In this document: positions 1 through 44,552 of the stretch, one piece after another
How positions within the stretch are numbered: the first letter of the stretch is position 1
Layout of the letters: every line of letters begins with the position of its first letter
Source: Octopus sinensis
Lineage: Eukaryota
Assembly: GCF_006345805.1 (NCBI RefSeq)
Contig: NC_042998.1
Location: 103,602,001-103,666,000 of the forward strand
Length of the DNA: 64,000 nt
Direction of reading: 5' to 3'
The notes under the pieces: generated by a model
What the model was told of the DNA's origin: nothing
What the model saw: the letters and a program-made list of their open reading frames with translations, nothing else
Databases searched by the model: none
Made by a program: the position numbers and the translations under genes

Positions 1-1162
1 ATCCGTTCCCTTGTACCTGTCATTCAAACTGCCAACTTTACCACTGAGGTTTACTTTATTGTTGCAGTTTCTACTGCTGCTGTTATTCAGCCTCGGGTGA
101 GCTCTGGTAAAGCAGGCATAATATGTGAACAAAGATATTCTAACCGTGACCATCTGTGAGACAAAGGGAAATTTGGTTCCATTCATACTGTTAACAGCAT
201 CTATTTAAATTGTGCATTAAGGTATTCTTGTATAAGCAGTGCACGCTTTGATCCATCGCTGTGAAGTGCGATTGAATCAAATCAAATCATTCGCACAGAA
301 CATCTACCGCTGGAGCTCTGGCAATTTATAACCAATATTTTCCACTCCTCTCGTCAAAGGGCTTTCATAATATATTTTAATGTTCCGATCCCAGTTCACC
401 CCTTAATATCATTGAGCCAGCTTCTCCTTCATCACCCACTTACCGTTTTACAGCATATTTGCAAGTAATCCAGTTATTCTACTGAATTTAAGGGACCGCT
501 GTAATTTTCGTCATTTTAATGTTGCTTTGAGTATATCACTCTTTCTAACCGACATTTTACGTTATTCTAATATGGTCTGGTTGGTCTGACAGTCGTTCCA
601 GGTAATGCTGACAATTTCATAGCGTTGATTATTTTTATTTATTTATCTATTTATTTATTTATTTATTTATTAAGTATGCCCATGTCTCACATCAAGACAA
701 TTCTACAAGTGTTATAGATTGTTTTAGCCTAATTAATTTAATAAACTTGATCAAAAGTAAACAAATATCTTATTTGGACTCAGATAAAACAGACATAGTA
801 CATGTCTAGACTATACTATACTGATGAGATCGAAAAGACCGATGTATGTGTCCATAACTGACCCTTGCTTTCAAACACAGATCAGGCTGTCCTTTCGATA
901 TGCATGCAAATTTACACATGAATTCCATTATTCACTTCCTTCTGAAATTATCCCCCTTCTCGAGAAATGTTGAAAGAGGTTAACGCTAAGAGTTTGGTTC
1001 CTTTCACTAACAAAGAAATTCAATAAATGAAGACTTTATTGTGTAATGAACACAGTACATCGTGCGTTTGTATAGACATACATACATATATACACACATA
1101 CATACACCACACACGCATATTTATATTGCATACATATATTTGGATGAATACATATAAAATAT

Positions 1163-6243: not shown

Positions 6244-6621
6244 CGCTCGTGGCTTTTTCTGCTAATACTGACCCAACTTTGACCACAACTATATACACAT
6301 GAATACACGAACACAAACACAAGCACGCGCGCGCTCAAATACGCACACATGCCTATGCACATATGTGTCTGAAAAGTTATTTACATATAACAGTGCTTAC
6401 GTGCAGTGTTTTTATGTTAGGTAGAGGGCAGAGTGTCAATACACTGAAATGAAATATATTTGTATGTAGTAAGTTTGTTTGTTATAACACTGAATTATAG
6501 ACATACAAGGTAAAACTACAACTTTGTTTTATTTTATTTTATTTTCTCTTTCCTTTTGTAGTTTACTTTGTACCTTCTCGCATTGTTCCGGCCTTTCACA
6601 AAAATTCTCTTCAGTATACAC

Positions 6622-13022: not shown

Positions 13023-13226
13023 ATGACCACGTGTGTATCGTTGTCAATTTTCTTTCTCCGTCTTCCCTCCCTTGGACTTTTCCTTTTTCTATATTTCTGA
13101 CGAAGAGCTCCGCTCGAAACGTTAAATCCTCCTTCTTTCTTTCCTTTCCTGAGCGTCCATTAACACTATACTCGTTCCACGTCCTCGTGTTGTTGTGTTT
13201 TCTCTTTGTTCATGTTTTTGATTAAG
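13023..13226 (+). mobile_element. Non-autonomous Penelope-like (pLTR-derived) element carrying a minimal hammerhead motif
   Basis: Lies between (CATA)n and (TA)n tracts and contains a hammerhead core. A homologous copy is on the minus strand at 21400-21610. Confidence 0.7.
13093..13127 (+). ncRNA. Minimal type I hammerhead ribozyme motif
   Basis: ATTT-CTGACGA-A-GAGC tcc GCTC-GAAA-CG-TT-AAAT: 4-bp stem I, 4-bp stem II, palindromic ACGT in place of stem III (dimer type), GUU site. Confidence 0.7.
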
Positions 13227-33869: not shown

Positions 33870-34400
33870 CAAAACTGTCTTAAGAGCTAACCAGTGCACT
33901 AGGCCCTATAATAACCAATGCTTTGGGTCCTATAATAACCAAGGCACTGGACCCTGTAATAACCAATGCATCGAGCCATATAATAATTAATGCATTGGGA
34001 TCTAAATAACCAATGCACTGGGCCCTATAATAACCAATGCACTGGGCCCTATAATAACCAATGCACTATGCCCTATAATAACCAATGTATTGAGCCCTAT
34101 AATAACCAATGCACTATGCCCTATAATAACCAATGCCTTGGGCTCTATAATAACCACTGTACTGGGCCCTATAATAACCAATGCATTGGGTTTTATAATA
34201 ACCAATGTATTAAGCCCTATTATAACCAATGCGCTGGACCCTATAATAACTAATGCTTTGGGCCCTATAATAACCAATACACTGGGTCCCATAATATTTA
34301 TTTCTTGATAACATGCCACAGCATATATATGTATCTGGCCCCTAAAGCCGTGAAGCTCCTGTGTAACTCCCCAATGCGCCCATGCCTTAAGACTGCTCTG
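33870..34400. mobile_element. Putative hAT-like non-autonomous DNA transposon shell
   Basis: Imperfect terminal inverted repeats caaaactgtcttaag / cttaagactgctctg; possible degenerate TSD gggagacg / ggaagatg. Confidence 0.5.
33889..34295. repeat. 24-bp minisatellite, 17 copies (consensus AACCAATGCACTGGGCCCTATAAT)
   Basis: Units counted by eye; one unit is 23 bp. Confidence 0.95.
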
Positions 34401-38646: not shown

Positions 38647-39490
38647 AACATTTGATATTTAGCTATAATGATTTTGGCCCTCGGCCAAAATTAAAAATAT
38701 AACCTTTTATATATTAAAGAAAGCTCTATCATCACCATCATTGGATCTGGTTACACCAACACTTCAACGAGTTTTGCAACGATTTGTGGAGAAGCAATTG
38801 TAATCTATAATGCTGAATATACATTTTAATGCCAACTTTGTACGCGTAATTTCTTCTATACTGAAGACTATTGTGAAACGGCCGTAATTCTACGGAAGTC
38901 AGGTGGCTAAATATATATATTCACTTCTTACGTCTCTTCACTTTATAAACACACACACACGCATGTATATATAAATACACACACACACACACACGCATGT
39001 ATATATAAATACACACACACACACACACACACACGTACATATGCATGCATGACTGTATACACTGTGAGAGTGACAGACAGGCAGACATACAGAGAGGGAG
39101 AGAAAGAATGAGAGAGAGAGAGAGAGCACTTATCTTAATTCTAACTGTGAACAAATCTAAGTTGCTGACTCACTATATTCCGTTTAACAAATTTGTCACC
39201 AAATCATAATCAAACACGACGCAATTGATCTTAACAATAACCTAAATGTGGGTGATGGGTATCGATCTTAGAGTAAATATTTATATTATTAACATTAATA
39301 TAAATATTCTAGGCGTACAAGTAATTTATATTTATATATATATAAATATATATAGCATGTATGTATATATATATATAATATATATATATATATAATATAT
39401 ATCTGGAGAGAGGAGAGAGAGGAGAGAGGGGGAGGGGATAGATAGATATAGATAAATATGTATATATACACACACGCACACACACATATG

Positions 39491-41990: not shown

Positions 41991-42115
41991 CTCATTAAAG
42001 GTATAGGGTAAAGAATTATCAATTTAATAATTAATAAATTTTACCACGTAGCTTCGGTATGTAAAATTCGGTAAAAAATTGTACAAAAAGTTTTAGTTTT
42101 TATATATAATTATAA

Positions 42116-42364
42116 ATATAATTAAGGGTTTAGCAACAAGCTGCTTCACCACATACCAAAAATTTAGAAATAGCAGCCAAAAGACCGTTAATTCTTTTCA
42201 CTACAAATGTGACTCCACAGACAACAACATTTGTAACTCACATAGGTAAAAAAGAAAGAAAAATAATGAAATCAGTCTTCGATTAATTATGGACGCGTTT
42301 TGGATTAGAATTATAAAAAATAATTTCCTTTATTAAGATAATATTGTTGCTAAACTCTTAATTT

Positions 42365-42368
<4 letters not shown>
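42116..42368. mobile_element. (TA)n-flanked element with about 23-bp terminal inverted repeats and a decayed hammerhead
   Basis: tataattaagggtttagcaacaa versus ttgttgctaaactcttaattttata. Minus strand 42288-42338 reads cTTAATAA-a-GGA aattat..ataatt ctaa TCC-AAAA-CGCG-TC. Confidence 0.7.
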
Positions 42369-42418
<50 letters not shown>

Positions 42419-42426
<8 letters not shown>

Positions 42427-42540
42427 GAAGGAGCTTCTACAGGACTAGAACTGTTTCATTCAAGAGAAATCTTCAGAGCTTCCTGAAGATTTCTCTTGAA
42501 TGAAACAGTTCTAGTCCTGTAGAAGCTCCTTCTATATAAT
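42419..42540. repeat. Perfect palindrome: 58-bp arms, 6-nt spacer
   Basis: 42419-42476 is the exact reverse complement of 42483-42540. Confidence 0.95.
42476..42528 (+). ncRNA. Type I hammerhead ribozyme, near-canonical
   Basis: GAGCTTC-CTGAAGA-t TTC tctt GAA t-GAAA-CAG ttctagtc CTG-TA-GAAGCTC: 7-bp perfect stem I, intact core, 4-bp stem III, GUA site (cut after A42521). There is a U-U mismatch at the base of stem II. Confidence 0.8.
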
Positions 42541-42617
42541 AAATTAATTTTACTCTGCTATGTATTGAGTACCTTATTTACTGTGGTTAACCCCGAATCA
42601 ACCCGGGACCTACATAT

Positions 42618-42649
<32 letters not shown>

Positions 42650-42859
42650 CGCATATAGATATATACATACATATTACATGTATATATGTGTGTGCGCGCG
42701 CGCGTCAGTATATATATACATATCAAATATGGGGGTTTAGTTCACAGGTGATCTAAACAACTAGGTACGCTGGGTAAGTGCTATAATGGATTACCAGGGC
42801 TCCAAGGTTATATCCGAGACGGGAGTTATGGAACCTTTGTAGATTTCCTATATAGCGGA

Positions 42860-42919
42860 TATACAACTGTTAAACAATTATTATTGTTTAAAATTTTATA
42901 ATTGTTTAACAATTATATA
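42860..42919. repeat. AT-rich 22-bp inverted repeat
   Basis: tatacaactgttaaacaattat versus ataattgtttaacaattatata. Confidence 0.7.
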
Positions 42920-44203: not shown

Positions 44204-44552
44204 TTGTAGTAAAGATCGTTTGCCAACATAACATGGCTGTCCTGGTTTAGGACTAATGTTATTGTAATTTAGCCCCAGGAGATATCGTCTCCAGCTAGCT
44301 ATACGACACGATCTATGTCCTTATATTTTCGAATTATTCTGTGCTGATGAAGAAAAAATAACCCGGAATTCGCGATACACAGATATTGTTTTGAGCTGAG
44401 TGGCGGGTGCTAGATTCCCTTATTCTAAAATATAAGGACATAGATCGTGTCGTATAGACAAATGGAGACGATGTCTCCTGGGGCTAAATTACAGCAACAT
44501 TAGCCCTAAACCAGGCCTGCCATGTTATGTTGGCAAACAATCTTTACTACAA
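44204..44552. mobile_element. Fold-back element: about 131-bp inverted arms and an 87-bp spacer containing a hammerhead-like motif
   Basis: 44204-44334 pairs with 44422-44552 with few mismatches. The spacer has TCTGTG-CTGATGA...C-GGAA-ttcgcga-TA-CACAGA. Confidence 0.88.

What the first reader, a model, noticed from the sequence alone, without database searches (positions are those of the whole stretch)
42419..42540. Hammerhead embedded in a perfect palindrome: built-in antisense switch
Seen: the right arm plus spacer encodes a near-canonical ribozyme and the left arm is its exact complement. The minus strand therefore carries the same core but lacks a full stem I. A read-through transcript would form a 58-bp hairpin that blocks the ribozyme (a Dicer/ADAR substrate), while a transcript starting at the centre could self-cleave. 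The inversion point lies in the self-complementary stem I sequence (AGCT). Inference: fold-back priming during retrotransposition creates these inverted ends. Perfect arm identity implies recent origin or gene conversion.
Basis: partly seen in the sequence, partly recalled or inferred. Interest (0 to 1): 0.72.

Follow-up and report, generated by a model that had tools for sequence, protein, structure and literature searches.

The report
Capped-RNA head-to-head Penelope retrotransposon stub
The palindrome and its hammerhead motif are real and are one of hundreds of short head-to-head insertions of a Penelope-like jumping gene, likely made by copying the capped front end of one RNA twice, once onto each cut DNA strand, and likely not an evolved switch.

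Summary
The palindrome is real: 59-bp perfect arms (42418-42476/42483-42541), 6-nt spacer, type I hammerhead motif on the right. It is a 197-bp insertion, in a TA microsatellite, of the first 138 nt (+1 = 42477) of a Hydra-clade Penelope-like element, preceded by an inverted copy of +7..+65. At least 567 such junctions exist genome-wide. The layout (inverted pLTR, one-sided tail) is published, and this scan found it before in other genomes. Family statistics point to a mechanism: 50 of 51 loci pair a short arm (about +68) with a long arm (+138). Arms stop at +1, 29 nt below a TATA box, and 74 of 86 and 45 of 52 ends carry a non-genomic C, the likely cap signature. Either arm may reach deeper, and arms share variants and template position. 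So one capped sense RNA is likely copied twice from both target strands, then end-joined. This argues against fold-back priming and against the published antisense self-priming idea. A second family repeats the pattern with the same ~70-nt offset. Ribozyme cleavage is untested; cleaved templates are rare. An evolved antisense switch is unsupported.

The parts
42365..42417 (.). Left (TA)n target tract
   Evidence: TRF period 2, 42365-42426; TA-rich tracts flank both ends at the 51 sampled loci
42418..42476 (-). Short inverted arm = element +7..+65 read on the minus strand; carries the hammerhead core (42476-42470) without a full stem I; inferred cDNA primed from one target strand at the upstream start site
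   Evidence: 59-bp perfect complement; exact short-arm end is +68 in 32 of 50 short arms
42476..42476 (+). Junction G: last base of the short arm and, likely, the cap-derived extra base of the long arm (1-nt microhomology)
   Evidence: Source element has T here; overlap 0 without and 1 with the cap letter; extra C/G at 74 of 86 and 45 of 52 arm ends
42477..42614 (+). Long arm = element +1..+138, the 5' end of the inferred transcript; ORF of the full element starts at +184
   Evidence: At least 40 copies 100% identical over 42476-42610; same sequence precedes the ORF in L057, L064, L067; ATG at +184
42477..42527 (+). Type I hammerhead motif: stem I 42477-42482/42522-42527; core 42483-42489; helix II 42490-42501 (U-U plus 3 bp, 4-nt loop); GAAA 42502-42505; helix III 42505-42520 with a near-palindromic loop; predicted cut after A42521
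   Evidence: Sequence, motif scan, constrained fold and helix III self-dimer -12.8 against -1.4 kcal/mol in cis; activity untested
42518..42536 (+). Predicted 8-bp hairpin (+42..+60) over the cut site that competes with stem I even without the left arm
   Evidence: Stem I probability 0.99 in a 52-mer, 0.18 in the 138-mer; not seen in the second family
42545..42614 (+). One-sided 'tail' (+69..+138): the stretch between the two inferred reverse-transcription start sites
   Evidence: 50 of 51 loci have it on one arm only; about 70 nt also in 15 of 15 loci of the second family
42615..42649 (.). Right (TA)n target tract; first 4 bases also match the element (+139..+142)
   Evidence: TRF 42614-42687

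Best explanation
This is a 197-bp head-to-head insertion of the first 138 nt of a Penelope-like element in a TA microsatellite, likely made when the element's protein cut both DNA strands and copied one capped sense RNA twice, from two internal start sites, to its 5' end, after which the two copies were likely end-joined. Shown: family identity, two fixed outer ends (about +68 and +138), a common inner limit at +1, an extra C at that limit, short microhomologies and locally templated inserts at the junctions, and concordance of the two arms. Inferred: +1 is a capped transcription start (TATA box at -29); both strands are primed; the template is one molecule (the second pass would have to displace the first cDNA); joining is by microhomology end-joining or a template switch. 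Because every transcript has the two start sites just behind its cap, most events give ribozyme-sized palindromes, while read-through RNAs give long copies. The hammerhead belongs to the element's 5' leader; the copied RNA was almost always uncut.
For: Family: 6305 exact matches to the helix III region, 567 close junctions, 36 matches to an ORF piece; ORF with Hydra-clade motifs. Two ends: 50 of 51 loci short+long, 1 long+long, 0 short+short; 30 of 30 pairs among 40 chromosome-order C1 loci; 15 of 15 in a second family of 47% amino-acid identity, ends +84..92 and +148..159. Cap: among the first 50 of 74 listed loci with both arms at +1, 43 do not run upstream; of their 86 ends 74 have C, where the genome would give A, and no C end continues CCTT as stem I templating predicts (counted by eye). 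Older subfamily: 45 of 52 ends (first 50 of 58 loci, by eye). TATAAA at -29. The extra G from capping is described for L1 (PMC11702581 passages). One template: +34 variant A/A 14, T/T 34, mixed A/T 0 of 48; both arms run upstream 12, neither 17, mixed 1 of 30 (p 6e-8); no C-ended arm paired with an upstream-running arm in 100 listed loci, 3 ambiguous. In vitro, a Penelope/Poseidon protein cuts and extends both strands, starts at two internal sites that define the tail, and uses uncut RNA (PMC11167929).
Against: No RNA start was observed; the runs available are contigs only. The extra C could be non-templated addition unrelated to a cap. In the second family the C is less clean: C 48, G 26, T 20, A 6 in the first 100 of 134 rows, and most C rows also fit a 1-nt microhomology (by eye). 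Concordance could come from one source copy being active per cell; two pairs are discordant (L213 at +34, L224 in loop II) and one locus is long+long (L088). 10 of 40 sampled loci showed no partner within about 6 kb. PMC11167929 found no difference in start site between strands, which does not by itself predict strict short+long pairing. The samples are the first rows in chromosome order, mostly C1, and include 3 tandem duplicates; junction patterns needed exact matches.
Confidence: 0.75

Rival explanations
1. Same double target-priming, but the two arms come from two different RNA molecules (one per protein subunit) made by the same active source copy.
For: Explains the extra C on both arms and symmetric depth; a dimeric protein is predicted for PAc (PMC11167929); variant concordance follows if one source dominates in a cell.
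Against: Does not explain why capped-end arms were not seen paired with upstream-running arms (0 of 100, 3 ambiguous; 1 of 30 mixed), nor the strict short+long pairing (50 of 51), without extra assumptions.
Confidence: 0.12
2. Fold-back or self-priming: one arm is a copy of the other, or arises by self-priming on an antisense template (hypothesis in PMC3846280), or is copied from the second DNA strand of the first cDNA.
For: Would give identical arms and a centre at a short palindrome; 17 of 51 junctions are perfect palindromes on AGCT; 6 of 21 shortened-arm loci join through the stem I repeat.
Against: A copied arm must be contained in its template. Short arm deeper 16, long arm deeper 15, equal 20 of 51; in L061 and L206 the short-ended arm is far longer than its partner; in all 6 stem I joins it is the long arm that is cut short. 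Both arms carry their own extra C at many loci. An antisense template gives no reason to stop 29 nt below a sense TATA box with a C.
Confidence: 0.07
3. The left arm is a selected antisense switch that silences the ribozyme in a read-through host transcript, or feeds Dicer or ADAR.
For: The read-through hairpin is very stable and abolishes stem I in silico.
Against: The same layout occurs at 567 or more young loci with at least 15 junction forms in 51; this copy equals the family sequence; the TATA box is absent; no ORF of 130 aa or more outside simple repeats in the window, though short exons would be missed; stem I is predicted mostly unpaired even without the left arm.
Confidence: 0.03
4. 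The palindrome is a non-autonomous mini-element that multiplies as a unit.
For: Some junction forms recur at many loci (17 of 51 identical).
Against: Recurring forms are the ones microhomology predicts; outer ends vary among loci with one junction form; the same two outer ends bound kilobase-long copies.
Confidence: 0.02
5. Chimeric-read or assembly artefact.
For: No independent record spans this locus with its flanks.
Against: Fixed biological ends and varied junctions at hundreds of loci; junction forms in contigs of 4 of 4 other runs.
Confidence: 0.01

Closest known systems
Inverted 5'-truncated pLTR plus one-sided tail of endonuclease-bearing Penelope-like elements (PMC3846280 passages; PMC8557442 Fig. 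2 legend)
   Same: Head-to-head inverted copy next to a direct copy, palindrome at the junction, tail on one end only, TATA box in the pLTR, microhomology junctions.
   Different: Tail about 70 nt rather than 30-40; whole insertion only about 200 bp; junctions cluster at a likely capped +1, which favours a sense template over the antisense self-priming proposed in PMC3846280.
Hydra clade of Penelope-like elements (PMC8557442 section 11 and supplement)
   Same: Single ORF, C-terminal GIY-YIG, DKT, RW[K/R], CxCX5C linker, CxxC and CxH, hammerhead, (TA)n target.
   Different: Protein differs by eye from the listed Hydra-1_Obim; unit 4.6-5.8 kb because of a long microsatellite-rich 3' region, against generally under 3 kb; no tree was built.
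PAc Poseidon element in vitro (PMC11167929, parts 1-2 of 4 read)
   Same: Two internal start sites bounding the tail, both strands extended, AT-rich target, uncut RNA as template.
   Different: Start sites lie in the 5' leader here, not in the ORF; strict pairing of one site per strand and copying to the cap were not reported in the parts read.
Metazoan PLE hammerheads (PMC4209133, parts 1-2 of 4 read)
   Same: Type I, in the pLTR, palindromic helix III suited to dimers, dual motifs on opposite strands noted there.
   Different: Helix II short with U-U in place of the conserved G10.1-C11.1 (a natural U-U start is reported in PMC3088659); 4-bp helix III can form in cis.
L1 twin priming (PMC11702581 passages; otherwise recalled)
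   Same: Second target strand primes on the same RNA; end-joining with microhomology; extra G from the cap.
   Different: In L1 the two cDNAs cover different parts of the RNA (recalled); here they overlap fully and start at two fixed sites.
Non-LTR retrozymes (bioRxiv 10.64898/2026.07.22.740005, part 1 of 5 read)
   Same: Short non-coding, hammerhead-bearing PLE derivatives.
   Different: Retrozymes are head-to-tail tandem units; this is head-to-head and shows no sign of spreading as a unit.

Membership tests
Endonuclease-bearing Penelope-like element | Parent ORF with RT and C-terminal GIY-YIG domain | tested here: met
   YRDD and VY..YIG motifs; by-eye likeness to Hydra alignments; atlas look-alikes 0.95-0.97, some with GIY-YIG or RVT_1 on part of their members. 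Pfam and PDB gave no supporting hit.
Endonuclease-bearing Penelope-like element | pLTRs, partial tandems, inverted 5' copy, one-sided tail | tested here: met
   L057, L061, L067; 50 of 51 and 30 of 30 short+long pairs
Hydra clade | DKT for DKG; RWK motif; GxKF/Y absent | tested here: met
   DKT at 116, RWR at 38 (R for K), no DKG or GxK[FY] in the N-terminal 285 aa of L057
Hydra clade | CxCX5C linker; CxxC and CxH in the endonuclease | tested here: met
   All three found in the C-terminal 399 aa of L057
Hydra clade | (TA)n target and hammerhead | tested here: met
Hydra clade | Generally under 3 kb | tested here: not met
   pLTR-to-pLTR 4642-5837 bp in 5 copies; the paper says 'generally'
Hydra clade | Placement in an RT tree | not tested
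   Reference proteins were seen only as text in the supplement
Type I hammerhead ribozyme | Core C3 U4 G5 A6 N7 G8 A9, G12 A13 A14, A15.1-U16.1, H17 | tested here: met
   Sequence 42483-42521; core, palindromic helix III and GUA also in the second family
Type I hammerhead ribozyme | Paired 10.1-11.1 (usually G-C) at the base of helix II | tested here: not met
   U-U here, A-A in the second family; PMC3088659 reports U-U as natural and the best-tolerated mismatch
Type I hammerhead ribozyme | Stems I and III form; Rfam match | tested here: inconclusive
   Stem I 0.99 in a 52-mer but 0.18 in the 138-mer; helix II 0.05-0.12; Rfam 0 hits at gathering score
Type I hammerhead ribozyme | Self-cleavage | not testable with these tools
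   Genomic hint only: 2 of 30 examined loci end exactly at +45; 6 loci join at +46 but also at the longest microhomology
Non-LTR retrozyme | Head-to-tail tandem units each with a hammerhead | tested here: not met
   Single head-to-head pair

The most novel reading that the evidence does not exclude
Penelope-like elements integrate by a two-pass mechanism unlike LINEs: one protein assembly sets two reverse-transcription starts a fixed ~70 nt apart on a single capped sense RNA, assigns one to each cut DNA strand, runs both to the cap and joins the two cDNA tips. The one-sided tail and the inverted pLTR would then be one event, and the antisense-template hypothesis for these elements would fall.
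Probability: 0.6. Interest if true: 0.62.

Novelty: new member of a known kind. Interest (0 to 1): 0.45.

Why it matters
The locus itself is an ordinary insertion scar. The family is useful because hundreds of near-identical young copies record both outer ends and the inner junction. PMC3846280 left open whether the template is sense or antisense and proposed self-priming; PMC8557442 lists the origin of tandem and inverted structures as unresolved. The extra C at +1, the short+long rule, the ~70-nt offset shared by two families and arm concordance turn this into a direct barcoded-RNA test. It also implies that the genome holds hundreds of 60-70 bp perfect hairpins that would form double-stranded RNA if transcribed (untested).

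Tried and rejected
Rfam scan of the window: 0 hits. Pfam on two ORF pieces: one unrelated sub-threshold hit; PDB sequence search: 0. One search used the wrong side of L019 and found only itself; repeated properly. Sequencing runs: no RNA holder on record; four guessed-RNA contig sets cover the ORF but cannot show starts, strand or level; no contig spans this locus. Search for copies ending at the predicted cut: 41 matches, 30 examined, 2 true ends (L245 = L209, L263); the rest are point changes, indels or microhomology deletions; no control position was run, so no enrichment is claimed. Stem I fold-back as source of the extra C: rejected, no C end continues CCTT in the listed rows. Competing hairpin as a conserved switch: absent in the second family. 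Within-subfamily divergence script failed; one search shows both subfamilies nearly uniform. Cap test in the second family is ambiguous. Paper searches listed no paper stating the two-pass single capped-RNA model; the library lacks most subscription journals, including the 2005-2006 PLE reviews, and I saw no supplements other than that of PMC8557442, so absence from print is not established. The 2017 paper on dimeric PLE hammerheads is recalled, not seen.

Full report
Observation. The window has a perfect inverted repeat of 59 bp, 42418-42476 and 42483-42541, around AGCTTC, between two TA tracts. The spacer and right arm carry a type I hammerhead motif: stem I of 6 bp, core CUGAAGA, helix II of 3 bp opened by U-U, GAAA, helix III of 4 bp with a near-palindromic loop, and GUA with the predicted cut after A42521. 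Rfam does not call it and the 53-mer folds no better than shuffles, so the motif rests on its core, on its conservation in related families and on variation confined to loop II among subfamilies (by eye).

What it belongs to. 42476-42610 has at least 40 identical copies (40 of 356 candidates scored), most with an inverted partial copy directly upstream and TA tracts outside. An ORF fragment in one junction led to long copies in which 42477-42614 is the leader of a single ORF beginning at +184 (+1 = 42477). [quoted passage not shown] Pfam and PDB gave no support; atlas look-alikes scored 0.95-0.97. No tree was built. The helix III region has 6305 exact matches genome-wide; close head-to-head junctions number 567 (control 0), a lower bound because exact matches to one subfamily were needed.

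Outer ends. In the first 50 junction loci in chromosome order plus the window, 50 of 51 pair a short arm (exact end +68 in 32 of 50, range +62 to +72, 4 not scored) with a long arm ending at +134 to +141; one is long+long, none short+short (3 of the 51 are tandem duplicates). In 40 loci taken in order from the start of C1 by a motif blind to junctions (leaving out those already fetched), 30 are pairs, all short+long, and 10 showed no partner within about 6 kb. A second family (47% identity) has 372 junctions, and 15 of 15 examined are short+long with the same ~70-nt offset. This is the published one-sided tail, which PMC11167929 traced in vitro to two internal start sites.

Inner ends. None of the first 50 junctions runs upstream of +1. 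In the source element +1 lies 29 nt below TATAAA and is preceded by T. Among loci with both arms at +1 and an insert, 43 of the first 50 listed (of 74) do not run upstream, and 74 of their 86 ends add C, 11 T, 1 G; the genome would give A (by eye). An older subfamily repeats this: 26 of the first 50 (of 58), 45 of 52 ends with C; 22 loci run upstream on both arms, 2 are ambiguous (by eye). A single extra base opposite the cap is the signature described for full-length L1 insertions (PMC11702581). I infer a capped sense transcript starting at the first base of stem I. With that letter allowed, 39 of 51 junctions have 1-4 nt of overlap; the window's junction overlaps by the single G42476. The second family is less clear: C in 48 of 100 rows, most also explained by 1-nt microhomology; its commonest centre is CTAG near its own inferred start.

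One template, two passes. Fold-back makes one arm a subset of the other. Instead the short arm is deeper in 16 loci, the long in 15, equal in 20; in L061 the short-ended arm holds the ORF while the long-ended arm is about 270 bp. Yet the arms are not independent draws: the +34 variant is A/A in 14, T/T in 34 and never mixed in 48; both arms run upstream in 12 pairs, neither in 17, one in 1 of 30; no C-ended arm is paired with an upstream-running arm in 100 listed loci, 3 ambiguous. One locus shares a private A-to-G change on both arms (L097). Against: L213 and L224 have discordant arms, and a single active source per cell could mimic part of this. The simplest reading is that both cut target strands prime on the same RNA, at about +68 and +138, both run to the cap (or stop early), and the two cDNA tips anneal by AGCT or another short overlap. 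PMC3846280 proposed self-priming on an antisense template and left the question open; these data favour a sense template.

The ribozyme. Core intact; U-U at the base of helix II is reported as natural and the best-tolerated mismatch (PMC3088659); helix III pairs far better with a second copy than with itself, as for dimeric PLE hammerheads of low in vitro activity (PMC4209133). A hairpin at +42..+60 is predicted to cut stem I occupancy to 0.18, but only in this family. The copied RNA was nearly always uncut: 6 loci join at +46 and 2 of 30 examined end at +45, each with a microhomology alternative or no control. Activity is open.

The switch idea. A read-through RNA would indeed lock the ribozyme, but nothing shows such an RNA, this copy lacks the TATA box, and it is one of hundreds with varied junctions. 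I read the left arm as a by-product.

Prior work. The architecture is published. Earlier notes of this scan in other genomes reached the same filing, and three of them the same-RNA or sense-template reading (seen after my reading was recorded); they are unchecked notes, not support. My paper searches did not list the two-pass capped-RNA model, with the limits given under Tried and rejected. Verdict: real, ordinary as a locus, new member of a known kind; moderately interesting for what the family says about the mechanism.

Noticed in passing
window 13097-13125 (+): Minimal hammerhead-like motif (CUGACGA, 4-bp helix II, palindromic helix III); a similar copy lies in L177, so likely another repeat family.
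   Followed up: no
window 38861-38890 (+): Hammerhead-like core with palindromic helix III and GUA, followed by a short TA tract; related motif on the minus strand near 6614.
   Followed up: no
window 44204-44552: About 350-bp element with long imperfect inverted arms (31 bp perfect), unrelated to the finding; MITE-like by shape.
   Followed up: partly
window 42080-42330 and 42700-42890: Both flanks are pieces of other high-copy repeats.
   Followed up: partly
L209 1887-1931: A pLTR piece ends exactly at the predicted ribozyme cut and is followed by a second upstream-plus-pLTR copy, as a template jump onto a cut RNA would give; L263 also ends there.
   Followed up: yes
L172 (second family) and L184 (third family): Related Hydra-type families carry hammerheads with the same palindromic helix III; one has A-A at the base of helix II, the other a U4C core and a long helix II. 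Several ORFs of about 720 aa look open.
   Followed up: partly
L186: About 476-bp tandem repeat with a hammerhead core in each unit, in both orientations; retrozyme-like.
   Followed up: no
L057 3580-6150: The element's 3' region is over 2 kb of microsatellite-like sequence that varies in length between copies.
   Followed up: no
window 33888-34296: 24-bp minisatellite, 17 copies.
   Followed up: no
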